Source: Dehalococcoidia bacterium (GTDB taxonomy: Bacteria; Chloroflexota; Dehalococcoidia; Lucifugimonadales; CAUZJF01). Taken from it: a stretch of 64,000 bases of DNA. The position numbers were made by a program, and so were the translations under genes. The notes under the pieces are model-generated. The model saw nothing but the letters and a program-made list of their open reading frames with translations, was not told where the DNA came from and ran no database searches. Positions within the stretch are counted from its first letter, which is position 1, and each line of letters opens with the position of its first letter. Shown here one piece after another: positions 19,958-51,360 of this stretch. Location of the stretch: assembly GCA_965247255.1 (NCBI GenBank), contig CBDFGS010000009.1, positions 416,964-480,963 of the forward strand, written 5' to 3'.

Positions 19958-22684
19958 CTAGCCGTCTTGGCTACGATGCCAGCTTTGTGGCTCACCGAAA
20001 GCCTCGTGAAGCCGATCACGGAGCGGCGCCCACTCTTCGCCGAGGAGCAGTGCGCCGTAGCGCCGGTGAAGCCCTTGCTCCCAGCACTTGGCGAAGATGA
20101 ATTCGCGGAAGAACATGTCGTCCTTCGGGAAGGACCGGCGCGCGCTCTGGAGCCGGACCGCGGCGGGACCGGGTGAGCGGGCGAGGAGGTAGCCGGCCCC
20201 CTGGCCCAGCAAGGTCGGCACAAGGTGGAAGTTCCTATACTGGTACGCCTCCGGGATTAGCCCCCACCGATCGAGCAGGTCCGCCGCCACCGTTAGGTCT
20301 TCCATGACACCGTTAACGAGCGCGTCGATCACTCCTTCGATCTGAGCTGCTTCAGAGGCGTCCAGCGTCCCAGCCCGGCGCCGCTCGTCCTCGAACACGT
20401 GGAGGAGCCTGGCCATCAGTATCAGGCCCTGTCCACGGTAGTAGCGAGGGAGTGGGTGGGTCGGCGAGTGGGAGGCGGCCTCGCTGTAGAGGTCCCAAGC
20501 GCTAGTAGGGTCGCACAGACAGAGATGGGCATCGCCTTCCTGGCAGAGGGACCGGACCAGGCCGCTGCCGAGTTCCCTTCTACTCAGCTTCGCCGCACCC
20601 TGGGCATACTTCAGCGCGTCATGCCACTCACCCAGCGAGAACGAGCAGTCCGCAGCGAGCCGCCGCAGGTACACGTCGGTACGGCCGCTCTCCTTCTGCA
20701 GCGCCTTCCGGACCCTCCGAAGAGCGGCGTCCCAGTCCCCTCGCTCCTGCGCCATCATGCTCTGGGTGACGTCGTCCACGACTGTGGCCACCTCAAAGGC
20801 CCAGCGCTCGACCTCGTCTGCCAGGGCGTCTAGAGCCTTCTCTTTGGCGCCATCGGATATGCGTTGCGCCGGCACGTCCAGCACCCAGGCGACAAGCTTC
20901 ACAGGGGCGTTGCTCGGCGAGATGCGGTTAATCGTCGTGGGGAAGACGTTCCGGATTCGGTCGAGCTCGTATTTCGAGACCAGCTTGCCGAGGGCGATAA
21001 CGACTCCGACCCCCGGCAGCTCCCCGATGAAGCTCTCTGCGCCGAACACGGCGGGGGCCTCGGGCCAGTGCGACCGCACAAAGGAGCGCCATTCCAGGTG
21101 CTCCATGGTCTCGACCAGCCAGCGGCCGAGCCGATCGGAGACCACCGGGTCGAACTCCTCCGGGTCCGGGCGATGCGACGACAACAAGAGGAACGGTAGT
21201 CTCAGGTCTCGCTGCAAGTGTTCGCTCTCGCGTATCTCTACGGCCTTTCGATTGAGCAGCTCCAGCAGCGCATCTTTGAACTGCTCACGCTTGAGAATCG
21301 TGGAGGTGGCGAGATTCGCAGACACGTTGGCGGAGTGGACGGCGGCGCGCTGTCGTTCGATAATCTCGCCCACGATACGACTGAAGACGGTCAATACGCG
21401 GGTCTCGACCTCCAGCCGAGGCGCTTCTAGCCGAGGCATCAGCATATAGAGGGATCCTATCGAGCTGCCGGACCCGGCCATGATCGGCAAGGCCATCGCG
21501 GAAAAGCCCCCGCGGCCCTTGTCATCTGCTGCCTTGTTCCGGAGATAACGCGTCTCCTGCTCAACCGATTTGATGACCATAGTCCACGGATATTCGACGG
21601 TGGGTACCACCAATGGTACAGCCACGGCGCTGGCGTAGCCGGAGAGCATCTCCGCACTCTTGGCTGGTTCCCACAAAGAGGGCTCCCACGGCTTGGAGGC
21701 TGAGCTCGCGAGCGCCCGTGCCCCTTCCGATTCCTGTGTCATCTCGATGACCTCGCACAGGGCGCCCGAATATGTGGCGTCCAGGAACTGAGTCACGAGC
21801 CATAGCTGAAGATCGTCAGCCGACCCCGCCTCCGGTTCGATGGCGATATCGAACCTGGACGACGATTGGGCCTGGTGAAACTCCTCGAATTCGATGAAGA
21901 CGATATCGAGAATCCTGCCGACGAATTCGAGCGTCTTATCGTCCGAGGAGACGGACGATGGCCTCATGGTCCCAATCAGTAGCTCGTAGAGTTCTCGATC
22001 TGTTGCGACCTGCAGCTCGACAAAGTGGCGGGCGGTCACCTCTCCCCTCGTGGGAAGCTGGTCCTTACCGAGAAACAGGACTTCGAGCGACGGCGCGATA
22101 ACTGAGCACGATGGCGACGGCCGTTCCAGGATGGTGCGGAACACGTACTCATGACTGACGGAGCGGGGCTTGCCCGACGCAGGTTCGCCGGCCTGACGGC
22201 CGTGTCGTTTTACGACTAGGAGGCAGTTAGCGTAGTGTTCCTGGTTGTGGAGGAGCGCCGAGAGGGCGCTACCGATAAGGCGCGGCGGAACGCGTCTGCG
22301 CAGCCGGTCCAGCGCGGTAACTATGAGCCGGTTCCAAACTCCGCCGTACCGCGGCTCGCCGCTTTTCGAGACGTCCTTCCCCCCCACGACGGCGTCTACG
22401 GCCTCGCGGAACTTCATGCCCCTGGAGCGCAGGAACAACACAGTCAGGGCGTCTGCGGTGGCGGGCAGGCTGAACAACTCTTCGTCGCCGATGCCACGGG
22501 TCCGCAATCGGCCGATAAGCCAACGGCGCCCCTGCTCTCCCGCCATCCGCAGCACCTCGCCGGTGGTGAAGGAGAGTTGGCCGGGGTGGTGACTGTCGAG
22601 CCAATCGAAGGCTTCCTCGCGGATCTGAGGCGCATGATCGAGGTCTGGGGGGACTCCCGGGTTGAAGAGGGCTGTTTTCTGCAT
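19958..22684 (-). CDS. large multidomain regulator-like protein (MerR-like HTH, GAF-like domain, degenerate cyclase-like segment, TPR-like C-terminus); function unknown
   Basis: 908-aa uninterrupted ORF. The N-terminus (TTGEVLRMAG...LTVLFLRSRGMKFREAVDAV) resembles a MerR HTH. The middle (GFSAMALPIMAGSGSSIGSLYMLMP...VFSRIVGEIIERQR) resembles GAF. The C-terminus is helical-repeat-like. Domain calls are by eye only. Confidence 0.5.
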   Translation of the reverse strand: MQKTALFNPGVPPDLDHAPQIREEAFDWLDSHHPGQLSFTTGEVLRMAGEQGRRWLIGRLRTRGIGDEELFSLPATADALTVLFLRSRGMKFREAVDAVVGGKDVSKSGEPRYGGVWNRLIVTALDRLRRRVPPRLIGSALSALLHNQEHYANCLLVVKRHGRQAGEPASGKPRSVSHEYVFRTILERPSPSCSVIAPSLEVLFLGKDQLPTRGEVTARHFVELQVATDRELYELLIGTMRPSSVSSDDKTLEFVGRILDIVFIEFEEFHQAQSSSRFDIAIEPEAGSADDLQLWLVTQFLDATYSGALCEVIEMTQESEGARALASSASKPWEPSLWEPAKSAEMLSGYASAVAVPLVVPTVEYPWTMVIKSVEQETRYLRNKAADDKGRGGFSAMALPIMAGSGSSIGSLYMLMPRLEAPRLEVETRVLTVFSRIVGEIIERQRAAVHSANVSANLATSTILKREQFKDALLELLNRKAVEIRESEHLQRDLRLPFLLLSSHRPDPEEFDPVVSDRLGRWLVETMEHLEWRSFVRSHWPEAPAVFGAESFIGELPGVGVVIALGKLVSKYELDRIRNVFPTTINRISPSNAPVKLVAWVLDVPAQRISDGAKEKALDALADEVERWAFEVATVVDDVTQSMMAQERGDWDAALRRVRKALQKESGRTDVYLRRLAADCSFSLGEWHDALKYAQGAAKLSRRELGSGLVRSLCQEGDAHLCLCDPTSAWDLYSEAASHSPTHPLPRYYRGQGLILMARLLHVFEDERRRAGTLDASEAAQIEGVIDALVNGVMEDLTVAADLLDRWGLIPEAYQYRNFHLVPTLLGQGAGYLLARSPGPAAVRLQSARRSFPKDDMFFREFIFAKCWEQGLHRRYGALLLGEEWAPLRDRLHEAFGEPQSWHRSQDG

Positions 22685-22902
22685 CGTTCTCTACGCCTCC
22701 GGTGGAATTTAGTAGAACACTCGTCTCTGTCGATTAACACGGCTGCTACGCCGTAGCAAAAGTGGTGATACTTCTCCGTCGCGTCTACTTGTGCGTCGCA
22801 CTCATGTAGCGCATTATAAGACAATCGTCAATGGTAGAGCCGGAAGAGCGGGTGTGGAAGATAGCAGGCCTCAGTTTATCGACTGGCCAGAGGTCAGCGG
22901 GT

Positions 22903-23172
22903 GATAGGGCAGGTTTAAAACCTGCCCCTACATCGCAGCTGCAACACCTCCATGGTTGCCGGAGATCGCCCGCGGGTTCAGGACTTACGAACAGCCGGAG
23001 GGCGAGATGCTAGGCGACGCTGTCGCGGTGGTAAGGGCGATAGGGCAGGTTTAAAACCTGACCCTACATCGCAGCTGCAACACTCCATAGTTGCCCGAGA
23101 TCGTGTCTGGGTTCAAGACTTCCGATTAATCGGAGGCCGAGATGCTAGGTGACGCTGTCGCTGCTGCCGGCG
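22903..23172. repeat. tandem duplication (period about 135-136 bp) containing a GGGCAGGTTTAAAACCTGCCC hairpin and the ribosome-binding site plus first codons of the downstream gene
   Basis: Copy 1 is 22903-23038 and copy 2 is 23039 to about 23172. GAGATGCTAGG(C/T)GACGCTGTCGC occurs at 23004 and 23139, and only the second ATG (23142) opens a long ORF. Confidence 0.85.
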
Positions 23173-23786
23173 TGGTGGTGATCGCACTCGCTGGGCTGGT
23201 CTTGTCGAACCTGGCGTACGACCTGGGGGTGCCAAGGTCGGTCTCCCGCTTTGTCGCACCCGGACTCGCGGGCGCAGCGTTCCTCGTCGCAGTGCTGTGG
23301 TTGGACCCCTGGACAGCCGTCACCGTATCGGCGGTGCTAACGGTGTTCGTTTTCACACTTCGAGTGGGATTTCGTAGGGGGCTGCGCGGCGTTGCCGGCA
23401 ACCTTCCAACCCAGGACTGGGCGGAGGTGACCTTCGCCGTAGCGGGCACGGCCAGTCTGGCAATCGGATGGGGCTTGCTGGGCGACAGGTGGCTCGCGTT
23501 CTTGCCCATCTCGTTCATGGCCTGGGGGGACAGCGCTGCCGGGCTCACCAGGGCCACGCTCTGGCGCAACGACGTCGCGAGCATATGGCCGTCCATCGTA
23601 ATGCTGGGCGTTTGCCTAGCCACGGCGCTGCTGTTTGAGCCGTACTGGACCGGCGCCCTTGGCGCTTTCGCAGCTACCGCGGCGGAGCGTCGCCGGCCGA
23701 TGGCCCTCCCTATTTGGGACGACAACCTTCACGTGGTTGCAATATCGCTGGCTGCCATGGGCGTCGTGGCCACAATCTGGGGCTGA
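23142..23786 (+). CDS. polytopic membrane protein, possibly dolichol/phytol-kinase-like (CTP-dependent cytidylyltransferase family)
   Basis: 214 aa with about 6 TM helices. The WGDSAAGL motif resembles the conserved GD..A..G loop of the CDS/dolichol kinase family. Weak call. Confidence 0.4.
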   Translation: MLGDAVAAAGVVVIALAGLVLSNLAYDLGVPRSVSRFVAPGLAGAAFLVAVLWLDPWTAVTVSAVLTVFVFTLRVGFRRGLRGVAGNLPTQDWAEVTFAVAGTASLAIGWGLLGDRWLAFLPISFMAWGDSAAGLTRATLWRNDVASIWPSIVMLGVCLATALLFEPYWTGALGAFAATAAERRRPMALPIWDDNLHVVAISLAAMGVVATIWG

Positions 23787-24033
23787 GTCGCCGGGCGGAC
23801 TACCTGGTCGGCCGTACCTCCAATCGCACACCAGCTGCCGGCCTACCACGCCGACTCGAAGCGCGTAGCAGATGCATCAAGTATAATGCTCATTAATGCT
23901 ACGGCGCAGTAAAAGCGATGACGTTTCTCCGCCGTACCCCCTTGTGCGTCGCATATACGTAGCGCATCATGTCGCCAGGATGTCTAGGGCAATGAACACA
24001 GAGGGGACACAGAAAGCCAAGGAGATGGCCGTG

Positions 24034-24351
24034 ATGACGCGGAGAGAGCGGCGGGCGCGCCGGCAGCGACGGTTCGTCACGGTCAGGGAGGCCCAACTGG
24101 CGGCGCGACTGGCGCGAATGGGCTACAAGGTCTCTAACGAGAGCGGGGCCCTGAGGGTGCCGAGCAAGATGCGGACCTGGTACCAGGGCAATCGCAAGAG
24201 CGCCCACCAGCCACCCCCCGGCCAAGCGTGGGAGAGATCAGGCCCCGCCTACGTAACCGCAGCCAACGGGACCGGACTCGCGGAGCCGATCGTGCTACAT
24301 CGATGGCGGAGGCTGACGGCAGAATCAACGACGAACGACACAACCGAATAA
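24034..24351 (+). CDS. small basic protein, unknown function
   Basis: 105 aa (MTRRERRARRQRRFVTVREAQLAARLARMGYKV...). AAGGAG lies 9 nt upstream and a strong terminator follows. The longer track ORF from 23896 lacks an RBS. Confidence 0.4.
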   Translation: MTRRERRARRQRRFVTVREAQLAARLARMGYKVSNESGALRVPSKMRTWYQGNRKSAHQPPPGQAWERSGPAYVTAANGTGLAEPIVLHRWRRLTAESTTNDTTE

Positions 24352-24383
24352 ACCGGCGGCGACCCGGCCAGAACAGGGTTAGG

Positions 24384-24420
24384 AAAGACCACAGCCAGCA
24401 GCTGTGGTCTTTGCTTTTCC
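24384..24420 (+). terminator. intrinsic terminator (copy 1 of the duplicated module)
   Basis: GACCACAGC-CAGCA-GCTGTGGTC followed by TTTGCTTTTCC. Confidence 0.75.
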
Positions 24421-24525
24421 GAAGCTCTGACACGTCAAGAGGAAAGGGGTGGCAGCCATGGAGTAGGCACACCGGGTGAAGGCGACGGCGCAGCAACTTG
24501 CCTGACCAAAAAGGAGGTGAACGCG

Positions 24526-24834
24526 ATGATGCAGCAGGACTACCGGATGATCGAGGTTGAGCGGAGCCTACCCCGAGCTTACGGAGCGCAGACCGGCATC
24601 CCTCCGGCAGCCAGGGATATCAATCAGCGCGTTCGGCAGACCGAAAGGTACTACGAGCAACCTTACGCCTCCCGTGGCCCCGCGGAGGATGGTTGGGAGC
24701 TCTCCCCACCCGCATCCTATCGCAGCAACGCCGGCGTGGACCGAGATACAGGGCTGGGTGAGGTAGCCGCGGTAGGGGGCCTCGATTTCATCCTGCAGGT
24801 GGCATCGGCCCTCTTCGGGGGCGGTGACGAGTGA
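24526..24834 (+). CDS. small protein carrying the MMQQDYRM N-terminal module, unknown function
   Basis: 102 aa. AAAGGAGG lies 8 nt upstream of ATGATG. The N-terminal 36 aa are paralogous to the start of the 1483-aa protein. The C-terminus is hydrophobic (GLGEVAAVGGLDFILQVASALFGGG). Confidence 0.6.
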   Translation: MMQQDYRMIEVERSLPRAYGAQTGIPPAARDINQRVRQTERYYEQPYASRGPAEDGWELSPPASYRSNAGVDRDTGLGEVAAVGGLDFILQVASALFGGGDE

Positions 24835-24978
24835 CCAGGCGTAGACGAGCGACAGGGCTCCGGGCTATCACGCCGGCCATGTCGCTCGCGGGCGGGAAGA
24901 GGGTGATGTCCATGCGGTAAAGGTGGCCGACATCGGGACGTTGAATATCCAGACCAAAGACTAAGGAGGCGAACAGCT

Positions 24979-25770
24979 ATGAACAATACGCAAACTCTAA
25001 CCGCAGGCGACAGGGCGCCAGTCGATGTCAAGGCACCGGTCGGCGGGACGGGTAAAAAGAATCTCCTTGATCCCTTCGGCGCGGCTCAGGGCAGGCCTAG
25101 CCTTCTCCCGCGCCGGAGAGAAGGGACAAGAGTGGAGATGACCCCCAGCGAGCTGGTCATGGTGCAGATGATGCCATGGAGCAACCTGGCGCTGGAAGGC
25201 GTTCAGTCGCGAACGGTCGAGAGTCCACCCTACGAGGTTGTCACGGCGGCGCTGGGCGCGGCAATCGTGGCGAACGAGGAAGCTGGAGCCGTCAAGCTGG
25301 AGCTGGTGGAGGAGAAGCACTTCTTCGGATGGTTCACGAGCACCATCCTCAGAGCTACTCCAACGGGCAAGCTTTTCCGGTGGCCTACCGGCAGCCTGGA
25401 GCACAGCCTGGGTGAGCACATCACCGTAAAGGCCAAAAGAGTATCCGACGTCGTCTACGACTGGATCGGTGAGGACAAGGCCTACGCTCAGCGGTACGTA
25501 ACGAACCGAGCGATGGGGCGCATGGTCGCCAGGAAGATGGTAGCTCGGAAGACGGTGCGCATCGAGAAGAGGGCGTTGGGGCTCTTCAGCTACACGTCGA
25601 AGTCGACGTACTACGTGCTTCCGAAGCGGAGCTACGCCCTCGCAGATTCGCCTTCGGCTCTCCCTGCGCATGCGTATCGGTACGTCGGCTTGCGCGGGGA
25701 TGATCAGCTAGAGGTCGAAATCCGAAGCGGCGTGAGCCGGCGGCAAGAGGCATCTGATTGCTACGACTAG
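24979..25770 (+). CDS. hypothetical protein
   Basis: 263 aa. TAAGGAGG lies 9 nt upstream within a third partial copy of the CAGACCAAA..AGGAGGCGAAC leader. No motif I recognise. Confidence 0.6.
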   Translation: MNNTQTLTAGDRAPVDVKAPVGGTGKKNLLDPFGAAQGRPSLLPRRREGTRVEMTPSELVMVQMMPWSNLALEGVQSRTVESPPYEVVTAALGAAIVANEEAGAVKLELVEEKHFFGWFTSTILRATPTGKLFRWPTGSLEHSLGEHITVKAKRVSDVVYDWIGEDKAYAQRYVTNRAMGRMVARKMVARKTVRIEKRALGLFSYTSKSTYYVLPKRSYALADSPSALPAHAYRYVGLRGDDQLEVEIRSGVSRRQEASDCYD

Positions 25771-25855
25771 CGAAGGTCAGGGATGGTCCGAAATGTCGTT
25801 CCGAACGAAGTGAAGAATCTGGGGCCGGGGGGCCGCACCCTACGGCACCGGGAGG

Positions 25856-25890
25856 AAAGACCACAGCCAACAGCTGTGGTTTTTGCTTTC
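25856..25890 (+). terminator. intrinsic terminator (copy 2 of the duplicated module)
   Basis: GACCACAGC-CAACA-GCTGTGGTT followed by TTTTGCTTTC. Confidence 0.75.
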
Positions 25891-25994
25891 CCACACCTCG
25901 GACACTTTAAGACGGAGGTGGCAGCTATGGAGTAGACGCACCGAATCAAGGTGGCGGTGAAGCAACTCGCCAGACCAAAAAGGAGGCGAACGCG

Positions 25995-28900
25995 ATGATG
26001 CAGCAGGACTACCGGATGAACGAGATCGGGCGGAGCCTACCCCGAGCCTATGAGAGGCAGACCGGCAAGCCTCGGGCTGCCAAGGATATCAATCAGCACG
26101 CCAACGACCCAAACTCGGCTATTAGTCCAGGGATTGCGGCATTCGCGACGGAATCGGATCAGCTGCCCGCCTGGGTTAGGTGGCTGACATTCGCGGTCCT
26201 TGGTGTCTTAATTGTGGGACTCTCAGTAACCGCCCAGGTGCGCAACGACTACATAGTCGCCTGGAGCCTTTCCCAAGGGATTATAGGAGAGGCGTCGACT
26301 CAGGGCCTGGGCAGCTTCCTGGCGAACTTCGCGACGGCGGGTGTCATCCTGGGCCTGGCGGTCGCCTCCCTGAGCATTCCCCCTGTAGCGCGCGCAGCGG
26401 GCTTCATGCTGCGTTCAGGACGGGTCGGAGTCAGCGGACTAGGCCTTGGAGCGTACGCCATCGCTCAGGCCATCGTCGCGCTGCTCGCACGCGTTCGGCT
26501 GGGCGTCGCCGCCGCAGTTCAGGCCATCGCGGCAGCGATGGCCCGTATCTGGCTCGTCGTCGAAGGAGTCGCTCGAGCCGTCGCGCCGGTGCTGGCCCGC
26601 GTTCGGTTGGGTGTCGCTGGGGTCATCGGCCACCTGTGGACTGGGACCGCGATCCTCCTCGGATATGTCGGTCTGGCTATTCGGGGCGTAGTCCGCGGGG
26701 TCGGCCTGGTGGTGTACTACTCGCTGGGCGGCCTCGTTATCGCGCTCTACTACTTGGTGGATGCCGTGCTTCGCTATGTGTGGCCAGTGGTGTCTAGCGC
26801 CGCGGTCCGCCTCTGGCTGGGCATCACCGTCACCGTGGGCGCCGTCTCCGCAATCATGGGTTACGGATGGCAGCGAGTCTCGGCGGCGTTGCACCAACTG
26901 CTGTTAGGGATCACGGTCATCGCCGGGGCTGTCGGCAGCGCTGTTGGCGGGACGTGGGCGATCATCGCGGTCGCGGCTGTTAATGCCAGCGCGCGGGCAA
27001 GCACAGCGGTGCGATACGTTTGGGCGCTCGTCTCCACGACTACCGCTTTGTTGGCAAGCGTCGCCGCGGCCTATTTGACTCGGCGCGGAGGTGAACTCAG
27101 CCGCAATCTGCGGTTGAGCAGTACCACCGTCGCTCGGGGCGGCCACCATGTGAGGGGTTACTCATGGTCTCGCACCGCGGCAGTGGCGGTCTTCCTGTGG
27201 CTAGGCGTCACGACTATCGCGCAGGCCGTTGGCCACCTGCTCGTGTACGCGGCGCATCGCGCTGTGGCCTTGACGGTCTTCCTCTGGCTGGGCGTCGCCA
27301 CTATCGGTCTGGGCTTTGGCGCGGTGCTCGGACACGGGTGGCACGCCGCCGGCGCACTCGCATCCTACGTGGGGCGCGCCATCTCCACCACCGCGCGGGC
27401 CGTTAACGCGGTGTTCCTGCCGGTGCGGCGGACTGTCGCGGCAATCCTACGCTACTTCGGGCGCGGTATCGCCATGATAGCTCGGGCCATTGGTGTGGTA
27501 CTCAGGGCCGCGTCGCAGAGTGGAGCTGCAGGCCTAGGCTACCTGGACCGCGGCGTGGCCGTCACAGGTCGGGCCGGCGGCACGGTGTTCTTGGCTGTGC
27601 TGCGGGCTGTGGCAGCGGTCCTGGGGTACTTCGGGCGTGGCATCGCCATCATGGCGCGGGCCGCTGGCGTGGCACTCGGCTACGTGCTGGGGATCGTGGC
27701 AGTGGTCGCGGGGTACTTTGGGCGCGGCATCGCCATGATGGCCCGGGCCGCAGGCGTGGTGCTCGCCTCGGTGCTGGGGGTCGTGGCAACGGCCGCGGGG
27801 TACTTTGGGCGCGGCATCGCCATGATGGCCAGGGCCGCAGGCGTGGTGCTCGCCTCGGTGCTGGGGGTCGTGGCAACGGTCGCGGGGTACTTTGGGCGAG
27901 GCATCGCCGTCATCGCTAGAGCTGTCGGCGCCATCCTGGGATACGCGTCGGGGTATGGCTCGTCCGTCCTGCGGCACCTGGCACTTGGAATGGCTACGCT
28001 CGGCCATCACTCTTACGTTGCTGGCGGCGTGGCGAAGAGGCAGCTTACCATCTTGCTGCGGTTGGTCTGGCTGGGCGTCTCGACCGCCGCGAGACTCTTG
28101 TGGCTCGGCGTCGCAACCTTTGCCAGCCGGGTGAGACCGCTCCTCTACTACTTGTTCATGGGCCTCTTCGCGTTCTTCGCGATAGCCGGGTGGGCGCTGT
28201 GGGCGGGGGTTTTACGGCCCCTGTGGCTGGGGGTCTCCGCGACCGCCGGTTTCCTTTGGCTGGGGGTGGCCACTATTGCGGGCCGGATATGGTTAGGAGC
28301 GTCCAAGTCCGCGTACTTCGCATGGCTGGGAATCACGACGACGGTGCTCGCTTTCGGCTGGGTGGTGTCGCGCGGCGCGACGGCCGCCGCACGCGGGCTC
28401 TGGAGAAGCGCGGCCTTTGCAGCGGGAACCTTGGGGACCGGCATATCTGCGACGCCGGACGCTGTCGGAATGGCGCTTTGGGTGGTCAAGCACCGGAAAG
28501 GGGTGTCTACATTGTCTGAATTCAACCTGACACGGGAACGAGCACTCTCCGTAATCGCGACGCTATGGGTGTTCGGTATCGGCGGTCTGATAGCTGTGGC
28601 GCTGCTGTGGCCCGGACCGCCGGAGCCGACCGTGGTCGTCGATCACTGGGTCACCGGCCACCTGTACTTCGGCGCAAATCTGCCGGATATAGCTGAGCGG
28701 TACAACGCGGCCGGCCACAGGACCGAGGCCGGCAAGCGCATCGTGGTCCAGATCCACAATGCCCCGTCATCCGAGGGAGCGCGGGCTCTGCTCGGCAGGG
28801 TTACCGGCGGGGGGCCGGCCATGGTAAACGCGGGGGCCGGGCTGCAAGAGCTGCCGGACCCCACCATCGTCACGCCTTCAGGCGCCCACTGGCTGGTAAG

Positions 28901-30446
28901 CGTCAATCACGGCGCGGGCCGCAAGGTCGTTGACCCAGACAACGCTCGGAGCCTCGCACTGGCCTACATTGGGATAATAACCTTCCGCGACATCGCGGAG
29001 TGCCTGGGCTGGCCGCAGAAGGAGATCGGCTACGCGGACATCATCGCACTGCGAAACGACCCGAGAGGGTGGAAGAGCTACTCGTGCGCCAAGCCTTCGT
29101 GGGGGACGAGGCCTCTGGTCGCCTTCACCGATCCCAGGACTTCGAGCACCGGCCGGAGCGTGCTGATCGCGCTGTACTCGATCGCCGCCGGCAAACTCCC
29201 GGGGCAGCTCACGCTGGATGACATAAAGGACCCGGCCGTCGTGAGCTACGTCGAGGGGTTCCAGCAACTCATAGACCACTACTTCATCGGCACGACCGTC
29301 ATGAACACGAAGATCTACAAGGGGGCGCGCTTCGGGCAGTTCTTCATCATGCCGGAGGACAACCTGATCCACCTCTACGAAGGCACGGCGCGGGCTAGGT
29401 TCGGGACGAAGACGCACTCGGCCCCGCCCATCAAGGACCCGATGGTCATGATCTATCCGAAAGAGGGCTCGATGGCGCGGACCAACTGCGCCTGCATCGT
29501 GGATGCCGCGTGGGTGACAGCCGAGCACGTCGAGGCCGCCGAGAAGTGGACCGACTTCCTGCTCGAAGACGAGCAACAGCGACTATTGATGGCGGCCGGC
29601 TTCAGGCCGACCGCGGGTCTCACCGTCCATGACCCGAGCAGCAAGATCACGCCACGGTTCGGACTGAACCCGGCGACACCGGCCAAGCCCCTCAACCCCG
29701 CGATGATCGCTCCTGAGGTCGCAGCCGCCATCGATGCGTCGTGGGAGGAGGTGAAGAGGCCGGGGATCATGACGTTTGTCCTCGACACGTCCGGCTCGAT
29801 GGTCGGCACCAAACTGAGGCAGGCCAAGGAGGGGCTGAACCTCGCCCTGGACAGCATGGCCAGCAACAACCAGGTTGGCTTCCTCTCATTCGGCAACACC
29901 GTCCACACCCAGTCCAGCATCCCTGTTGCCCCGCTGGCGGATGTGGGCCCGGCAATCGTGGAGGCCGTCGAGGTAATCCGGGCCCGCGGGGAGACCGCGC
30001 TCTACGACGCAGTGAAAAGGGGCATCGAGATGACGGACGCAGCCGAAGGAGACCCCGACGCCATCCGTGGCGTGGTGGTCCTCACCGACGGCCTGGCGAA
30101 CCGCGGGGCGACGCGGCTGGACGACCTCATCAAGATGTTCGATGGAGAGGCCCCCATCCGCGAGTTCGGAGGCTTCGAAGGCGATTCAGTCGCCGTTCGT
30201 AACGATGGCAGAAGCGTTCCGTTGGAAGTCACCGTGGATGGGAAGATAGTCGACAACGAGCAGTTCCGGGGCGACGGGCTGGCCATCCATACCGAGCACC
30301 GCATCCAGGTGTTCTTCATCGGCATTGGTGAGGACCTGAAGCTGACCGTTGGCCGGCTGCTCGCCGAAGCGACCTTCGCGGAGTTTCAGGGGGTAACCGA
30401 AGAGGATCTGGCCAGCTTGCTCCAGGAACTCAGCGGGTATTTCTAG
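25995..30446 (+). CDS. giant membrane protein: MMQQDYRM N-terminal module, an approximately 800-aa repetitive hydrophobic region, a periplasmic-binding-protein-like domain and a C-terminal vWA domain
   Basis: 1483-aa uninterrupted ORF with AAAAAGGAGG upstream. The hydrophobic Ala/Gly/Val/Leu/Arg-rich repeats span roughly 26150-28620. The SBP-like segment (FTDPRTSSTGRSVLIALYS...IMPEDNLIHLYEG...YPKEGSMARTNCACIVDAAW) spans roughly 28620-29740. The vWA domain with MIDAS motif DTSGSM and VVLTDGLAN spans roughly 29760-30443. Confidence 0.85.
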   Translation: MMQQDYRMNEIGRSLPRAYERQTGKPRAAKDINQHANDPNSAISPGIAAFATESDQLPAWVRWLTFAVLGVLIVGLSVTAQVRNDYIVAWSLSQGIIGEASTQGLGSFLANFATAGVILGLAVASLSIPPVARAAGFMLRSGRVGVSGLGLGAYAIAQAIVALLARVRLGVAAAVQAIAAAMARIWLVVEGVARAVAPVLARVRLGVAGVIGHLWTGTAILLGYVGLAIRGVVRGVGLVVYYSLGGLVIALYYLVDAVLRYVWPVVSSAAVRLWLGITVTVGAVSAIMGYGWQRVSAALHQLLLGITVIAGAVGSAVGGTWAIIAVAAVNASARASTAVRYVWALVSTTTALLASVAAAYLTRRGGELSRNLRLSSTTVARGGHHVRGYSWSRTAAVAVFLWLGVTTIAQAVGHLLVYAAHRAVALTVFLWLGVATIGLGFGAVLGHGWHAAGALASYVGRAISTTARAVNAVFLPVRRTVAAILRYFGRGIAMIARAIGVVLRAASQSGAAGLGYLDRGVAVTGRAGGTVFLAVLRAVAAVLGYFGRGIAIMARAAGVALGYVLGIVAVVAGYFGRGIAMMARAAGVVLASVLGVVATAAGYFGRGIAMMARAAGVVLASVLGVVATVAGYFGRGIAVIARAVGAILGYASGYGSSVLRHLALGMATLGHHSYVAGGVAKRQLTILLRLVWLGVSTAARLLWLGVATFASRVRPLLYYLFMGLFAFFAIAGWALWAGVLRPLWLGVSATAGFLWLGVATIAGRIWLGASKSAYFAWLGITTTVLAFGWVVSRGATAAARGLWRSAAFAAGTLGTGISATPDAVGMALWVVKHRKGVSTLSEFNLTRERALSVIATLWVFGIGGLIAVALLWPGPPEPTVVVDHWVTGHLYFGANLPDIAERYNAAGHRTEAGKRIVVQIHNAPSSEGARALLGRVTGGGPAMVNAGAGLQELPDPTIVTPSGAHWLVSVNHGAGRKVVDPDNARSLALAYIGIITFRDIAECLGWPQKEIGYADIIALRNDPRGWKSYSCAKPSWGTRPLVAFTDPRTSSTGRSVLIALYSIAAGKLPGQLTLDDIKDPAVVSYVEGFQQLIDHYFIGTTVMNTKIYKGARFGQFFIMPEDNLIHLYEGTARARFGTKTHSAPPIKDPMVMIYPKEGSMARTNCACIVDAAWVTAEHVEAAEKWTDFLLEDEQQRLLMAAGFRPTAGLTVHDPSSKITPRFGLNPATPAKPLNPAMIAPEVAAAIDASWEEVKRPGIMTFVLDTSGSMVGTKLRQAKEGLNLALDSMASNNQVGFLSFGNTVHTQSSIPVAPLADVGPAIVEAVEVIRARGETALYDAVKRGIEMTDAAEGDPDAIRGVVVLTDGLANRGATRLDDLIKMFDGEAPIREFGGFEGDSVAVRNDGRSVPLEVTVDGKIVDNEQFRGDGLAIHTEHRIQVFFIGIGEDLKLTVGRLLAEATFAEFQGVTEEDLASLLQELSGYF
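27449..27970 (+). repeat. six tandem 87-bp (29-aa) in-frame repeats inside the giant CDS
   Basis: Unit starts at 27449, 27536, 27623, 27710, 27797 and 27884. Units 27710-27796 and 27797-27883 differ at only 2 positions by my count. The peptide unit is GYFGRGIAMMARAAGVVLASVLGVVATAA. Confidence 0.9.
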
Positions 30447-30580
30447 ATAGAAACGGGAGAGTACTTCGCGTCTAGGGAGTCCAGACCAGGTGATCGTTGA
30501 CGCACCCGGTAGAAAGTGACCTTATACCCTTGAGGCGATGAAGAAGATCTCTAGAATGCGAACCAGGTAGGAGTTTAGCC

Positions 30581-31261
30581 ATGACAACTCGTGCTGCACT
30601 ACTGCATCCCCTCGGCGTGACGCTCTTTGTCGGCAGCTTGCTCGCGATCGCGGCGTTGAAACTACTACCGGGGCTGGAGCGCTGGGCGGCCCAGGCTCCC
30701 TGGGTCTTGGTACTCGGGTTCATAGCATACGTTGCGTCTGTGATTGCCGTGCGTATACTGCCACCGGAGGTACGCCGCGATCTTTCCGCGCCGGAGCTCC
30801 GCAAGCTCGACTCGATTCGACGGGCTATGGAAACGAAACTCAAGCAACGAGAAGCCGCGGATGGCGGCTCATCGGAGCTCACCGGCGTCGTCCTGGAGGC
30901 GATCGTGCACCTGGACGTCCAGGTCACACCGGCGCTCCAGCAACTCCTGGCGCGGCAAAAGAACCTCAGCGAGCTGCTGGCCAAATACGACCGGGGGGAG
31001 CTGCCGCTGCCTGAGCCGGCGGTCCTGGAGCGTCTTCGGCGTATTAGCTCGCGTCAACGCACGGCCATCGAAGAATGCGTGCAGCAGGCCTCCAACGCCG
31101 CCGGAACTCTCGAGGCGCTCCTCCAGGAGAGCGACGACGAGGTCATAGCATCCGAAGCCCGAGCCTGGGCCGACGATCTGCTTACGTTGTACGACTCGGT
31201 GGGTGACGTGTTGCGGGGTGAGGAAGGGCAAGGCGTGCTCGAAGACAATATGAGTAGGTGA
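30581..31261 (+). CDS. membrane-anchored coiled-coil protein (2 N-terminal TM helices), possibly XpaC/TelA-like
   Basis: 226 aa with TAGGAG upstream. Two TM helices are followed by a long helical domain (LRKLDSIRRAMETKLKQREA...LQQLLARQKNLSELLAKYD...). The family assignment is tentative. Confidence 0.6.
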   Translation: MTTRAALLHPLGVTLFVGSLLAIAALKLLPGLERWAAQAPWVLVLGFIAYVASVIAVRILPPEVRRDLSAPELRKLDSIRRAMETKLKQREAADGGSSELTGVVLEAIVHLDVQVTPALQQLLARQKNLSELLAKYDRGELPLPEPAVLERLRRISSRQRTAIEECVQQASNAAGTLEALLQESDDEVIASEARAWADDLLTLYDSVGDVLRGEEGQGVLEDNMSR

Positions 31262-31269
31262 GCTAATCT

Positions 31270-31304
31270 GGGCGGGGCAAGAGTCCATGTCTCTTGTCCC
31301 GCCC
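31270..31304 (+). terminator. GC-rich hairpin after the vWA operon (no clear U-tract)
   Basis: GGGCGGGGCAAGAG-TCCATGT-CTCTTGTCCCGCCC. Confidence 0.4.
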
Positions 31305-31325
31305 GCGGGCATGCGAGCTTCAGGT

Positions 31326-31347
31326 GGGCGCGGCAAGCAGCGCCCCC
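31326..31347. repeat. REP hairpin family GCGCGGCAAGCAGCGCC
   Basis: GGGCGCGGCAAGCAGCGCCCCC. Confidence 0.75.
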
Positions 31348-31421
31348 ACTGGTTGTTTTTCGTGGGCAACGCACCCCGTCTTAACCTCGTCTTTCCTCGA
31401 TGCGGTAGGTATAATCGAAGC

Positions 31422-32432
31422 ATGAGCAAGAGCGAGAGGCCCCTGGTCGCCATCACCATGGGCGACCCTGCCGGGGTAGGGGCTGAGGTCACGGTAAAGG
31501 CGCTTGACGACGCCGGCGTGTACGAGAGATGCCGCCCGTTCGTCGTCGGCAACATCGACGCGATACGGGACGCCCAGCGCTTCGTTGGGAACGGCGGCGC
31601 TGCTCAAGGCGTCCGCTCGCTAGAGCATATAGCCGGGCATGCCGGCACCGTCGAGGTGTTCGACCCGGGCAACCTCGACTACGGCGACATAACCCTTGGG
31701 CGTTTATCGGCTGCGGCCGGCAAGGCCTCCGTCGAGTGGATCATCCAGGCGGGCGAGATGGCGACCAGCGGAGGCGTCCAGGCGATCGTGACCGCGCCTA
31801 TTAACAAGGAGGCGTGCAGTCTGGCGGGCTACCAGGACATCGGCCACATGGAGCTGCTCCAGCGGCAGACCGGCGCGAAGGAAGTCGCCACGATGCTCAT
31901 CGCCGAGGGTCTCCGCGTCGTGCACCTGACCACCCACAAGTCAATGCGCGTCGCCTGCGACTTCGTGACCAAAGCCAACGTGCTCTCTGCGATATTGCTC
32001 ACATCGAGGTATTTTCAGCAGTGGGGTTTCGAGGCGCCTCGCATAGGAGTCGCCGCGCTGAACCCGCATGCCAGCGATGGGGGGCTCATCGGGGACGAGG
32101 AGGAGCGGGAGATCGCACCGGCTATAGCCGAGGCGCGCGCCCAGGACGTCGAGGCGATCGGACCAGTGCCTGCCGATACGATATTCAACCAGGCGATCGA
32201 CGGTATGTACGACGCCGTGCTGGCCATGTACCACGACCAGGGGCACATACCCATCAAGGTGCACAACTGGGCCAAGAGTATTACGCTCAATATGGGGCTG
32301 CCCTTCATCCGTACCTCGGTCGACCACGGTACCGCCTTCGACATCGCCGGCAAGGGCATAGCCGATCACGAGAGCATGGTGGAGGCGATCCGAGTGGCCG
32401 TGGACCTGGTCAGCGAAGGCAAGCTGCGATAA
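31422..32432 (+). CDS. pdxA: 4-hydroxythreonine-4-phosphate dehydrogenase family (PdxA/PdxA2)
   Basis: 336 aa: ITMGDPAGVGAEV...VTAPINKEA...LNPHASDGG...DHGTAFDIAGKG. I start at the ATG at 31422, because the track ORF from 31287 runs through a REP hairpin. Confidence 0.85.
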   Translation: MSKSERPLVAITMGDPAGVGAEVTVKALDDAGVYERCRPFVVGNIDAIRDAQRFVGNGGAAQGVRSLEHIAGHAGTVEVFDPGNLDYGDITLGRLSAAAGKASVEWIIQAGEMATSGGVQAIVTAPINKEACSLAGYQDIGHMELLQRQTGAKEVATMLIAEGLRVVHLTTHKSMRVACDFVTKANVLSAILLTSRYFQQWGFEAPRIGVAALNPHASDGGLIGDEEEREIAPAIAEARAQDVEAIGPVPADTIFNQAIDGMYDAVLAMYHDQGHIPIKVHNWAKSITLNMGLPFIRTSVDHGTAFDIAGKGIADHESMVEAIRVAVDLVSEGKLR

Positions 32433-50436: not shown

Positions 50437-50585
50437 GGGGAGTCCACAGATCCTTCCGGTTCCCTGACCGGATTCACTATTCGGCGTCGTCGCCACTAGG
50501 CGCCTCTGAAAGGCACGCCCACTTCTCGACCGCTATCCCGAGCTCTTTCACCAGCGGCGCACCGGACCGACATTGACATCGATGT
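50437..50585 (-). repeat. small-ORF repeat unit, degenerate copy G
   Basis: The minus strand reads ...DVNVGP...LSEAPSGDDAE* followed by TGAATCCGGTCAGGGAACC and GGACTCCCC. Frames are broken. Confidence 0.6.
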
Positions 50586-50751
50586 AACAACGATCCTAGA
50601 CTGCTCAGGCCCACTGGACTCTTAGGTAGGCAGGCCGTTAGGGCCGCCGCAACGGTCTAGCGCACTCCACCGAGGAAAGACATCGCCAGAACCCCAATCG
50701 CTTAACATGTAGCCAGGTTACTTCGTCTGCGGAAATCCTGAGAGGACCAAC

Positions 50752-51304
50752 ATGGCACGATTGCCCTACGCTTCCAGAGAAGACCTGCCGCGGCACAAGC
50801 AAAGCGTATATGATCGCATCGCCGAAACACGGGCCGGCGCCGAGTCGGGGCAGGGAATGCCGCACTCCTTTCAGGCCCTATTGAACAGTCCGGACGCCCC
50901 AGAGGTTTGTCGCCGCTCTCGGCGAGTATCTCCGATTCAAGTCGCCGCTCGACCCGATGGTACGCGAGACCGCAATTCTGGCCGTGGCTCACGAACTGGA
51001 AAGCCAGTACGAGTGGGCCCACCACGAGCCCATAGCCCGGAGAGTTGGCGTCCGGGACGAGGTCATCGAGTCGATTAGAAGCGGTATGGCACCGATGGGA
51101 CTGCCGGCGAAGGAGGGTGTGTTCGCGCAAGCCTCTAAGGAGCTGGCGGGGAAGGGCACGATGACGGAGCGCACGTTCCAGGCGATCCTGCACCTGCTCG
51201 GCCCTCAGCAGACCGTGGACCTAGTCGTGCTGATCGGTTACTACTCGATGCTTGCCGGCGCTCTTAGTGCACTCGACGTCGAGCTGGAGCCCGAGCTAGA
51301 GTGA
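50752..51304 (+). pseudogene. carboxymuconolactone decarboxylase (AhpD-like) family gene split by a frameshift
   Basis: Frame 1 reads MARLPYASREDLPRHKQSVYDRIAETRAG...FQALLNSPDAPE. The homologous continuation FVAALGEYLRFKSPLDPMVRETAILAVAHELESQYEWAHH... is in the +1 frame from about 50905. Confidence 0.7.
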
Positions 51305-51360
51305 AAGTGGGCCCGGCCGGCCTGGCAAGTGGTCAGCTCTGCAGTCTGAGTTCGGACGAC

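What the first reader, a model, noticed from the sequence alone, without database searches (positions are those of the whole stretch)
24381..26110. A roughly 260-bp module (terminator + 5' leader + RBS + first 36 codons) is duplicated in front of two different genes
The segments at about 24381-24640 and about 25853-26110 align base for base through four parts: the terminator hairpin (GACCACAGCC..CAGCTGTGGT), a leader of about 105 nt (GGTGGCAGC(C/T)ATGGAGTAG...GCAACT(T/C)GCC(T/A)GACCAAAAAGGAGG(T/C)GAACGCGATGATGCAGCAGGACTACCGGATGA), the RBS, and the first 36 codons. By my count 26 of those 36 residues are identical. After that the two proteins diverge completely (102 aa versus 1483 aa). A third, shorter copy of the translation-initiation region (CAGACCAAAGACTAAGGAGGCGAACAGCTATG) precedes the 263-aa gene at 24948-24981. 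Conservation of the untranslated leader suggests a shared regulatory RNA or operator. The conserved N-terminal peptide suggests a shared partner-binding, targeting or processing signal.
Basis: seen in the sequence. Interest (0 to 1): 0.62.

Follow-up and report, generated by a model that had tools for sequence, protein, structure and literature searches.

The report
Duplicated gene-header module with two-codon mini-ORF
The repeat is real: it is two of three local copies of a conserved "gene header" (terminator-like hairpin, strong ribosome-binding site with a two-codon mini-ORF, second ribosome-binding site) found in several uncultured Dehalococcoidia, and one copy was pasted, with 36 codons of its gene, onto a giant membrane-protein gene.

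Summary
Window 24381-24633 and 25853-26102 are about 83% identical, with 26 of 36 shared residues. They are the only two copies in the genome.

The pair is not isolated. A third, older copy of the whole leader, with its own hairpin, precedes the 263-aa gene.

Each copy has the same parts:
- a hairpin
- an extended Shine-Dalgarno sequence (SD1)
- 6 nt
- a two-codon ORF (ATG GAG TAG twice, ATG CGG TAA once)
- an unstructured, U-poor spacer of 58-59 nt
- a second SD and the gene start

The same module follows a conserved Arg-rich small gene and an almost invariant 29-mer in 12-14 Dehalococcoidia genomes, often in 2-3 copies.

- The hairpin shows compensatory changes.
- In the ten aligned mini-ORF leaders the mini-ORF keeps its start and stop while its sense codon varies.
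- The leader has no conserved fold and no Rfam match.

The 36-aa peptide is confined to this genome. Its conservation is what the DNA identity alone predicts.

A homologue of the 102-aa protein in another order continues across the repeat boundary. Copy A is therefore the source, and copy B is a derived fusion onto the 1483-aa vWA gene.

The proposed function is inferred, not shown: a cistron header that loads ribosomes and stabilises or boosts the downstream mRNA.

The parts
23896..24351 (+). Arg-rich small protein gene. The listed ORF is 151 aa. The conserved part starts at Met44/Met47 (24025/24034) with MTRRERRARRQRRF. It is the conserved upstream neighbour of the module.
   Evidence: Orthologues found in 11 of 401 genomes of the order, always next to the 29-mer. 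No Pfam, NCBIfam or PHROG family.
24355..24383 (+). Nearly invariant 29-mer GGCGGCGACCCGGCCAGAACAGGGTTAGG, starting 4 nt after the stop codon.
   Evidence: 0-3 mismatches in 11 of 401 genomes of the order (8 families) and in one genome of another order. The control pattern gave 0 hits. No stable fold of its own (z = +0.7).
24384..24420 (+). Hairpin A: stem AAAGACCACAGC / GCTGTGGTCTTT, loop CAGCA, U-rich tail. Terminator-like.
   Evidence: -26.8 kcal/mol, z = -5.4. Across 13 copies 96.8% of cells are paired and 7 of 12 pairs show compensatory changes; slid controls give 31-65%.
24441..24466 (+). Leader A: SD1 (GGAAAGGGGTG), 6 nt, then the two-codon mini-ORF ATG GAG TAG (24458-24466).
   Evidence: Complementary to the 16S 3' end ..GAUCACCUCCUUUCU.
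24467..24525 (+). Leader A: unstructured U-poor 59-nt spacer ending in SD2 (AAAGGAGGTGA, 24510-24520).
24526..24834 (+). P0001, 102 aa. Codons 1-36 (24526-24633) belong to the repeat. Residues 27-92 are homologous to the N-terminus of a 388-aa membrane protein that follows the same module in genome G652. P0001 is a truncated relative of that protein.
   Evidence: E = 4e-5, alignment crosses the repeat boundary; coding-like codon usage; no close relatives.
24846..24888 (+). Hairpin C (GAGCGACAG.. / ..CATGTCGCTC, large loop), 12 nt after the P0001 stop. Weaker evidence than for hairpins A and B.
   Evidence: -31.5 kcal/mol, z = -1.8.
24894..24981 (+). Leader C: SD1 (GGGAAGAGGGTG), 6 nt, mini-ORF ATG CGG TAA (24912-24920), 58-nt spacer, SD2 (24963-24969), start of P0003.
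24979..25770 (+). P0003, 263 aa. A distant member of a family of about 230-aa proteins, some of which match GPP34 (PF05719).
   Evidence: 126 homologues in a full HMMER search. GPP34 matched by 6 of 28 members, best E = 1.4e-5. The word-seeded search had found none.
25856..25892 (+). Hairpin B: stem AAAGACCACAGC / GCTGTGGTTTTT, loop CAACA, U-rich tail.
   Evidence: -25 kcal/mol, z = -5.1. The single stem change keeps a G-U pair.
25914..25994 (+). Leader B: SD1 GGAGGTG, 6 nt, mini-ORF ATG GAG TAG (25927-25935), 59-nt spacer, SD2 AAGGAGG (25980-25986).
25995..30446 (+). P0002, 1483 aa: multi-pass membrane protein with repeats, an SBP-like region and a vWA domain. Codons 1-36 (25995-26102) are the copied segment. 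The N-terminal tail is about 30 aa longer than in orthologues.

Best explanation
The two 253-bp segments are paralogous copies of a conserved intergenic 'cistron header'.

The header consists of:
- a terminator-like hairpin
- 15-30 nt of linker
- a very strong Shine-Dalgarno sequence (SD1)
- 6 nt
- a two-codon mini-ORF (start, one sense codon of variable identity, stop)
- an unstructured, U-poor spacer of 58-73 nt
- a second strong SD and the start of the gene

This genome has three headers in a row, in front of P0001, P0003 and the 1483-aa vWA membrane protein. The same header sits at the same syntenic place in 12-14 Dehalococcoidia genomes: after an Arg-rich small gene and an almost invariant 29-mer. 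It is often present in two or three copies there too.

The A/B pair arose when the header of the first gene, together with that gene's first 36 codons, was copied onto the large gene. The mechanism was either segmental duplication or gene conversion between pre-existing headers. The large gene thereby received a new translation start and a foreign, hydrophilic 36-residue N-terminal extension.

Since then selection has kept the hairpin stem, the mini-ORF and the SD2/start region in both copies. It has not kept the peptide.

Inferred, not shown: the hairpin ends or attenuates the upstream transcript and caps RNA ends. Ribosomes that load at SD1 and translate the mini-ORF protect the downstream mRNA from 5' decay and/or raise initiation at SD2. 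Each cistron of this envelope-associated gene array is thus expressed as its own unit.
For: Repeat and copy number:
- The repeat is real and has only two copies in the genome.
- Independent unitigs confirm the arrangement.
- A third full leader is present, with its own hairpin.

Conservation across genomes:
- The 29-mer anchor was found in 11 of 401 genomes of the order, plus G401/G402 in a family-level search and G652 in another order.
- All these loci show the hairpin and leader downstream.
- Hairpin covariation: 96.8% of cells paired, 7 of 12 pairs compensatory, 0 of 500 shuffles as good.

Mini-ORF and leader:
- Mini-ORFs seen: G000 ATG GAG TAG (twice) and ATG CGG TAA; G001 GTG AAG TAG; G065 ATG CAG TAA; G120 ATG GCA TAG and ATG ACG TAG; G254 ATG CAA TAA; G402 and G652 ATG CGA TAG; G128 ATG TAG.
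- The sense codon varies while start and stop change only to other starts and stops.
- Where the stop is missing, the same SD1 and start open a real ORF (G002, G044, G128, G132).
- SD1 is complementary to the 16S 3' end over 7-13 nt.
- There is no consensus structure in the leader.

Selection since the copy event:
- A/B divergence is patchy. I count 2 differences in 81 positions of stem, mini-ORF, the 6-nt gap and SD2 to codon 8 (the per-segment table sums to 3), against 34 in 153 positions of linker, spacer and codons 9-36. Fisher p = 2e-5 for the 2/81 table.

Direction of the copy event:
- P0001 residues 27-92 align with the first gene after the module in G652, across the boundary (E = 4e-5). 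P0002 does not align.
- The N-tail of P0002 is about 30 aa longer than in 4 orthologues.

Precedents and plausibility:
- The two-codon minigene of the EHEC LEE1 leader is needed for optimal ler expression (PMC3262186).
- The axe-txe mg2 mini-ORF acts in cis and positively, possibly by stabilising the mRNA (PMC8708949).
- Ribosomes at a strong SD block RNase J1 on B. subtilis hbs mRNA (PMC5737220, abstract).
- This genome encodes RNase J (588.8 bits against a cut-off of 400).
Against: - No transcript, 5'-end or ribosome data exist for this organism. Only DNA-type runs of one sample hold the sequence. Translation of the mini-ORF, termination at the hairpin and any effect on the downstream gene are therefore all inferred.
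- The leaders are homologous, so retention of start and stop is not a set of independent events.
- The SD-N6-start-NNN-stop pattern is not enriched genome-wide (6 occurrences, 3 of them here).
- Five or six leaders lack the two-codon ORF: G002, G013, G044, G054, G132 and the first leader of G128.
- The direction A to B rests on one pairwise alignment with one distant homologue.
- Duplication and gene conversion cannot be told apart.
- The simple terminator scan did not call the hairpins, because part of the U-tract lies within the stem.
Confidence: 0.6

Rival explanations
1. Processive antitermination unit (may coexist with the main reading). The Arg-rich small protein encoded just upstream is a lambda-N-like RNA-binding antiterminator. 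The invariant 29-mer is its nut-like site. The hairpins in front of each cistron (A, C, B) are real terminators that the modified polymerase reads through. The repeat then duplicates a regulated terminator together with its leader.
For: - The conserved N-terminus TTRRERRAERQRQY (G652) matches 10 of 14 positions, in order, of the lambda N arginine-rich motif TRRRERRAEKQAQW. 0 of 5000 shuffles score as high. For the G000 protein P is about 0.015. The peptide sequence is as printed in PMC4053799 and others.
- The gene order promoter, ARM gene, 29-mer, terminator-like hairpin, effector genes is kept in all 12-14 genomes.
- The 29-mer is conserved in sequence while the hairpin is conserved only in structure.
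- In this genome only header A has the intact 29-mer, yet two more hairpins follow. That fits a processive mechanism.
Against: - BLASTP finds no alignment to the N peptide, and no Pfam or PHROG antiterminator family matches.
- The 29-mer has no boxB-like stable hairpin (z = +0.7).
- The ARM match was chosen after the fact from memory.
- Arg-rich motifs are low in complexity.
- The 29-mer could equally be a DNA operator.
Confidence: 0.2
2. Neutral relic: a one-off segmental duplication with no function of its own. P0001 is a dead chimeric ORF, and the similarity is simply not yet erased.
For: - This 36-codon duplication is private to this genome.
- The peptide shows relaxed constraint: dN/dS about 0.5, and identity is not above the random expectation (P = 0.15).
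- P0001 is a truncated relative of a 388-aa protein.
Against: - Divergence is strongly non-uniform. The hairpin stem, the mini-ORF and SD2 to codon 8 are nearly unchanged in both copies, while the spacer and codons 9-36 differ by 19-27% (Fisher p = 2e-5).
- Copy B supplies the only start of a conserved 1483-aa gene.
- The same module is conserved across families.
Confidence: 0.1
3. Shared N-terminal peptide signal: the 36 residues are a targeting, processing or partner-binding tag common to both proteins.
For: 26 of 36 residues are identical, and the first 8 codons are identical at the DNA level.
Against: - No relative of the peptide exists anywhere else.
- Orthologues of the large protein lack it.
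- The sequence is hydrophilic and charged, without a hydrophobic core.
- 10 of 13 changed codons are non-synonymous.
- Identity equals the neutral expectation.
- The identical first 8 codons form one block with SD2 and the start codon. That fits selection on translation initiation rather than on the peptide.
Confidence: 0.04
4. Structured cis-regulatory RNA (riboswitch, thermometer or sRNA) shared by the two genes.
For: The untranslated leader is conserved between the copies and in other genera.
Against: - No Rfam match at E <= 1.
- Leader folds are no more stable than shuffles (z = +1.3, -0.6, +1.6).
- RNAalifold predicts 0 pairs on 10 leaders.
- The spacer is 6-14% U and purine-rich.
Confidence: 0.03
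5. Recombination site of a gene-cassette system (integron-attC-like): the 29-mer and hairpin are sites at which cassettes are inserted, which would explain repeated modules between unrelated small genes.
For: - The module recurs between unrelated genes in G044, G120, G065, G002 and G000.
- The 29-mer contains GTTAGG, which resembles the GTTRRRY core as I recall it.
- IS elements have landed in this locus in G001, G002 and probably G065.
Against: - I did not notice an integrase gene beside the loci, but neighbouring ORFs were not screened for one.
- I saw no inverse core site paired with GTTAGG (by eye, not searched).
- The array lies at one fixed chromosomal locus next to the same two genes.
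- Copy B lacks an intact 29-mer.
- The leader part, with its SDs and mini-ORF, has no place in such a model.
Confidence: 0.03

Closest known systems
Two-codon leader minigenes: EHEC LEE1 (ler) leader AUG AAA UAG; axe-txe mg2
   Same: A strong SD, a start, one sense codon and a stop, placed in the 5' leader some tens of nt ahead of the real start. In both published cases translation of the mini-ORF acts in cis and is needed for full expression of the next gene, possibly through mRNA stability (PMC3262186, PMC8708949).
   Different: Here the element is only inferred from comparative sequence. It is coupled to a hairpin directly upstream, is repeated before successive cistrons, is conserved across families and two orders of an uncultured class, and shows no fixed reading-frame relation to the main ORF (spacer 58-73 nt, all three phases).
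5' mRNA stabilisers that work through ribosome binding: B. thuringiensis cryIIIA STAB-SD and B. subtilis aprE leader (both from my own knowledge); hbs mRNA (PMC5737220)
   Same: An SD with extended complementarity to the 16S 3' end, placed well upstream of the start codon, and for aprE combined with a 5' stem-loop. A bound ribosome blocks RNase J1. This genome has an RNase J.
   Different: As I recall, STAB-SD is not followed by a start codon. Here SD1 is followed by a start codon at 5-7 nt in almost all leaders, with a complete two-codon ORF in most. The position of the transcript's 5' end is unknown.
Intrinsic (Rho-independent) terminators and intercistronic hairpins of operons
   Same: A GC-rich stem of 9-12 bp, a loop of 4-7 nt, a U-rich 3' side and an A-tract 5' side. 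The structure is conserved through compensatory changes.
   Different: The U-tract is short and partly inside the stem, so a simple scan misses it. Termination activity is untested. An invariant 29-mer directly precedes the first hairpin.
Phage lambda N / nut processive antitermination
   Same: A small basic protein whose N-terminal Arg-rich motif resembles the N ARM. It is encoded upstream of a conserved RNA or DNA site and a series of terminator-like hairpins.
   Different: No family-level homology and no boxB-like hairpin in the 29-mer. The locus is chromosomal, in Dehalococcoidia, and next to envelope-related genes.
Chimeric genes made by 5'-end duplication (promoter or leader capture)
   Same: A copy of expression signals plus the first codons of one gene is fused in frame to another gene, giving a new N-terminus.
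   Different: The donor is a reusable conserved header that already stands before several genes of the same array. Non-allelic gene conversion between headers is therefore as likely as de novo duplication.

Membership tests
Two-codon leader minigene | SD at proper spacing, a start codon, exactly one sense codon and a stop, within a 5' leader | tested here: met
   24441-24466, 24894-24920 and 25914-25935. The same holds in G001, G065, G120 (twice), G254, G402 and G652.
Two-codon leader minigene | Start and stop are kept while the sense codon is free to change | tested here: met
   Alignment A4 plus G652. Sense codons: GAG, CGG, AAG, CAG, GCA, ACG, CAA, CGA. Stops: TAG or TAA. Starts: ATG or GTG. 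The leaders are homologous, so these are not independent events.
Two-codon leader minigene | The mini-ORF is translated and affects the downstream gene in cis | not testable with these tools
   No RNA or ribosome data exist for this organism.
Intrinsic terminator | Stable GC-rich hairpin kept by compensatory changes | tested here: met
   z = -5.4 and -5.1. 96.8% of cells paired and 7 of 12 pairs compensatory.
Intrinsic terminator | Run of U directly after the stem | tested here: inconclusive
   Copy A has ..GGTCTTTGCTTTTCC and copy B has ..GGTTTTTGCTTTCCC. Both are U-rich but interrupted, and the consensus scan does not call them.
Structured cis-regulatory RNA (Rfam family or riboswitch) | Match to a curated covariance model | tested here: not met
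   No relevant match at E <= 1 in 20000-32000.
Structured cis-regulatory RNA (Rfam family or riboswitch) | Conserved secondary structure with covariation in the leader | tested here: not met
   0 consensus pairs on 10 leaders. Folds are no better than shuffles.
N-terminal signal or targeting peptide | Conserved in orthologues, or shared by other proteins | tested here: not met
   The MMQQDYRM pattern scans of the genome and metagenome collections found no relative that carries it.
N-terminal signal or targeting peptide | Purifying selection on the peptide | tested here: not met
   dN/dS about 0.5. Identity 26/36 against a random expectation of 23.8 +/- 1.7.
Lambda-N-type antitermination | Arg-rich RNA-binding motif in a small protein | tested here: inconclusive
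   10 of 14 positions match in order, 0 of 5000 shuffles. No BLASTP, Pfam or PHROG support.
Lambda-N-type antitermination | boxB-type hairpin in the nut site | tested here: not met
   The 29-mer folds no better than shuffles.
STAB-SD / ribosome-mediated 5' stabiliser | Extended anti-SD complementarity far upstream of the gene start; a 5'-3' exoribonuclease present | tested here: met
   SD1 has 7-13 nt of complementarity to the 16S 3' end and lies 70-90 nt before the gene start. RNase J scores 588.8 bits.
STAB-SD / ribosome-mediated 5' stabiliser | Longer mRNA half-life that depends on the SD | not testable with these tools
   Needs experiments.

The most novel reading that the evidence does not exclude
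The locus is a chromosomal, lambda-N-like processive antitermination system. An Arg-rich small protein (TRRERRAERQRQY motif) binds the almost invariant 29-mer in the nascent transcript. It thereby lets RNA polymerase read through the terminator hairpins that precede every cistron of an envelope-stress-like gene array. Each cistron is then translated from a header carrying a two-codon mini-ORF. The duplicated module would be one regulated terminator-plus-leader unit of that system.
Probability: 0.15. Interest if true: 0.8.

Novelty: new variant of a known kind. Interest (0 to 1): 0.5.

Why it matters
Two-codon minigenes in leaders have been shown to matter in only a few cases, namely the LEE1 leader and axe-txe (lambda bar minigenes are a third case I know of from memory). 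Their generality is unclear.

Here comparative data from 12-14 uncultured Dehalococcoidia genomes show such a mini-ORF kept across families. Its sense codon varies freely. It is coupled to a covarying hairpin and repeated before successive genes. That makes a natural test set for how minimal ORFs and strong SDs control mRNA fate in a phylum with no genetics.

The case also documents how a conserved 1483-aa membrane protein acquired a new start and a foreign N-terminal tail by copying a neighbouring gene's header.

The invariant 29-mer and the N-like Arg-rich protein next to it are a separate lead that can be tested directly.

Tried and rejected
- **Dispersed repeat or MITE.** Rejected: the hairpin and leader motifs occur only at this locus in the genome.
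- **Assembly artefact.** Rejected: independent unitigs span the junctions.
- **Rfam family or structured leader.** Rejected.
- **The small TM protein of G001/G002 as source of the 36 codons.** My by-eye resemblance (AYEKQ against AYERQ) was not supported. tblastn of P0001 and of the P0002 N-terminus against all the related loci then in hand gave only E > 0.2, and G000 has no copy of that gene. The real homologue turned up later in G652.
- **P0003 as an orphan.** The word-seeded search found nothing, but the full HMMER search found 126 homologues.
- **Promoter between hairpin and SD1.** Only weak -35-like hexamers and no -10 (and reading). Not supported.
- **Genome-wide use of SD + two-codon ORFs.** Not seen: 6 cases, about the chance level.
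- **Fixed frame or distance rule between mini-ORF and main ORF.** None: spacers of 58-73 nt in all three phases.
- **RNA-seq evidence.** No RNA runs hold the sequence.
- **Lambda N homology by BLASTP or PHROGs.** Nothing.
- **boxB-like fold in the 29-mer.** Nothing.
- **Metagenome and genome scans for closer relatives of P0002.** They gave only 40-64% relatives, and none had the peptide.

Full report
**1.

Copy A is 24381-24633 and copy B is 25853-26102. They align end to end with one 3-nt indel. Identical positions by segment:

| Segment | Identical / total |
|---|---|
| Hairpin | 33/35 |
| Post-hairpin | 19/28 |
| Leader | 65/78 |
| First 36 codons | 90/108 |

- Similarity ends sharply after codon 36.
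- A search of the whole 4.3-Mb assembly finds just these two copies.
- Unitigs from three runs of the same sample cover 23800-24548, 24356-25311, 24572-26017 and 25102-26600 without a single difference. The arrangement is not an assembly artefact.

**2. Context**

The nearest named relative is a Dehalococcoidia MAG. The genes on the + strand, in order, are:

- an Arg-rich small gene (ORF 23896-24351)
- P0001, 102 aa
- P0003, 263 aa
- P0002, 1483 aa, a multi-pass membrane protein with internal repeats, an SBP-like region and a vWA domain

A 908-aa TPR protein is encoded divergently upstream. In relatives the large gene is usually preceded by PspA- or TelA-family genes.

**3. There are three headers, not two**

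The region in front of P0003 (24894-24981) is a diverged copy of the entire leader, not only of the RBS. A hairpin lies just upstream of it at 24846-24888 (z = -1.8, so weaker). Each of the three units reads:

- hairpin
- linker
- extended SD (SD1)
- 6 nt
- a two-codon ORF: A is ATG GAG TAG at 24458-24466, C is ATG CGG TAA at 24912-24920, B is ATG GAG TAG at 25927-25935
- a spacer of 58-59 nt with only 7-14% T
- SD2 and the gene start

**4. The header is conserved far beyond this genome**

Directly after the stop of the Arg-rich gene lies the 29-mer GGCGGCGACCCGGCCAnAACAGGGTTAGG.

- With up to 3 mismatches it was found in 11 of 401 genomes of the order (8 families), with 0 control hits.
- It was also found in two more genomes in a family-level search and in one genome of another order.
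- G118 has it with a 1-nt insertion.
- The Arg-rich protein was found in 11 of 401 genomes, 10 of them the same genomes.

Downstream of the 29-mer most of these loci show a hairpin and an SD1 leader, though G065, G132 and G401 lack a clear hairpin.

The hairpin stem differs between genomes (GACCACAGC, GGCGACGG and GGCGATGG types). In an alignment of 13 copies:

- 96.8% of cells pair
- 7 of 12 pairs show changes on both sides
- no shuffle of 500 does as well
- slid registers give 31-65% pairing

**5. The mini-ORF**

| Genome | Mini-ORF |
|---|---|
| G000 | ATG GAG TAG (twice), ATG CGG TAA |
| G001 | GTG AAG TAG |
| G065 | ATG CAG TAA |
| G120 | ATG GCA TAG, ATG ACG TAG |
| G254 | ATG CAA TAA |
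| G402, G652 | ATG CGA TAG |
| G128 (second leader) | ATG TAG |

- The sense codon differs at all three positions.
- The start changes only to GTG, and the stop only between TAG and TAA.
- In G002, G044, G128 (first leader) and G132 the same SD1 and start open a longer, real ORF. SD1 therefore behaves as a true initiation site.
- G054 has lost the start.
- SD1 is complementary to the 16S 3' end (..GAUCACCUCCUUUCU) over 7-13 nt.
- The pattern is not a genome-wide habit: 6 occurrences, 3 of them here.

The leader has no structure. Single-sequence folds are no better than shuffles, RNAalifold predicts no pair on 10 leaders and Rfam gives nothing. Spacers are 58-73 nt, in all three phases relative to the main ORF.

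**6. The peptide is not a conserved signal**

- Neither P0001 nor the first 140 residues of P0002 has any relative among 5.8 billion proteins.
- Back-translated MMQQDYRM patterns found no relative in the genome or metagenome collections.
- Orthologues of the large protein (G001, G002, G054, a metagenome contig) have unrelated N-tails that are about 30 aa shorter.
- Differences fall 2, 9 and 7 on codon positions 1, 2 and 3.
- dN/dS is about 0.5.
- 18 random substitutions would leave 23.8 +/- 1.7 identical residues, against 26 observed (P = 0.15).

**7. Direction of the event**

In G652 the gene behind the same module is a 388-aa membrane protein that starts MWDLPTADEINQRVREIERGHE.

- P0001 residues 27-92 align with its residues 5-59 (E = 4e-5).
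- The alignment runs across the repeat boundary: P0001 has DINQRVRQTER, while P0002 breaks off as DINQHANDPN.
- P0002 does not align.

Copy A is therefore in its original context, and P0001 is a truncated relative of that protein. Copy B is the derived fusion.

Degenerate 29-mers plus hairpins also precede the large gene in G002, G044 and G254. A header probably already stood there. Gene conversion from header A into header B, running on to codon 36, is thus as likely as a fresh duplication.

**8. Both copies are under selection on the signals**

A/B differences by segment:

| Segment | Differences / positions |
|---|---|
| Hairpin stem | 1/24 (keeps a G-U pair) |
| Mini-ORF | 0/9 |
| SD2 to codon 8 | 1/42 |
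| Linker | 7/28 |
| Spacer | 11/41 |
| Codons 9-36 | 16/85 alignment columns (18 of 84 nt in the ungapped count) |

Fisher p is 2e-5 for signal positions against the rest.

**9. How it most likely works (inferred)**

- The hairpin is terminator-like: a GC-rich stem flanked by an A-tract and a U-tract. It would end or attenuate the upstream transcript and protect RNA ends.
- SD1 and the mini-ORF would keep a ribosome on the 5' part of the downstream RNA.

Published two-codon minigenes act this way:

- The LEE1 minigene (AUG AAA UAG) is needed for optimal ler expression (PMC3262186).
- axe-txe mg2 acts in cis and positively, perhaps through mRNA stability (PMC8708949).
- Ribosomes at a strong SD block RNase J1 on hbs mRNA (PMC5737220).

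G000 encodes RNase J. From my own knowledge, cryIIIA STAB-SD and the aprE leader are further parallels.

**10. A side lead**

The Arg-rich protein begins (M)TRRERRAERQRQY. This matches the lambda N arginine-rich motif TRRRERRAEKQAQW at 10 of 14 positions, in order. No shuffle of 5000 scores as high for G652, and P is about 0.015 for G000. Together with the invariant 29-mer and a series of terminator-like hairpins, this suggests N-like processive antitermination. BLASTP, Pfam and PHROGs give no support, and the 29-mer has no boxB-like fold. I rate this reading at about 0.15-0.2.

**11. Limits**

- There are no expression data.
- The leaders are homologous, so counts of retained starts and stops are not independent.
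- The direction rests on one distant homologue.
- The genus has a single genome.

Noticed in passing
window 24355-24383: The 29-mer GGCGGCGACCCGGCCAGAACAGGGTTAGG, directly after the stop of the Arg-rich gene, is kept with 0-3 mismatches across at least 9 families and 2 orders, while the flanking proteins are only 46-65% identical. In the source metagenome, depth over it rises to 40-90x against about 3x for the flanks, so many relatives in the sample share it. It has no stable fold, and its function is unknown.
   Followed up: partly
window 24037-24075 (residues 48-60 of ORF 23896-24351): The N-terminal motif TRRERRA(E/R)RQR(Q/R)(Y/F) of the conserved small protein resembles the lambda N arginine-rich RNA-binding motif (10 of 14 positions for the G652 orthologue, 0 of 5000 shuffles).
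   Followed up: partly
window 25792-25824: AATGTCGTTCCGAACGAAGTGAAGAATCTGGGG, between the P0003 stop and hairpin B, is a fragment of a REP-like element. It has 4 copies in this genome (one with an inverted partner). Summed depth in the source metagenome is about 800x, with variable flanks. It sits at the 5' junction of copy B.
   Followed up: partly
window 22899-23161: A tandem duplication of about 135 bp (D13 at 96%, D9 at 81%) copies a hairpin, the RBS and the first codons of the 214-aa gene at 23142. This is a second case of 5'-end duplication in the same locus.
   Followed up: no
window 22744-22817 and 23897-23970: A 74-nt repeat (74% identical) contains TTGTGCGTCGCA..N..CAT(T/C)AT. It is promoter-like and is also present before the Arg-rich gene in G002 and G652. 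It implies that the 151-aa ORF is over-extended at its 5' end.
   Followed up: partly
window 24979-25770: P0003 looked like an orphan in the word-seeded search. A full HMMER search finds 126 homologues, and 6 of 28 aligned members match GPP34 (PF05719). It is a bacterial GOLPH3-like protein of unknown role.
   Followed up: partly
L023 (G001), L022 (G002), L042 (G065): Insertion sequences have landed in this locus in two of the related genomes, and probably in a third. In G001 the insertion is inside the Arg-rich gene. In G002 two IS lie after the second hairpin, one of which looks IS110-like by eye. In G065 the two nearly identical modules bracket what appears to be an IS (not confirmed).
   Followed up: no
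L045 (G128), second leader: One leader has SD1 followed by ATG TAG, a start-stop with no sense codon, in the same position as the two-codon ORFs.
   Followed up: no
window 27363-27971: Six in-frame 87-bp tandem units (61-75% identical to the reference copy) lie inside the 1483-aa gene. Orthologues have similar but differently numbered repeats.
   Followed up: no
window 50438-56067: A motif of 40-65 nt (GGAGTCCCC..CC(C/T)GACCGG(A/G)TTCAC) recurs five times within 6 kb (families D4 and D6). Not examined.
   Followed up: no
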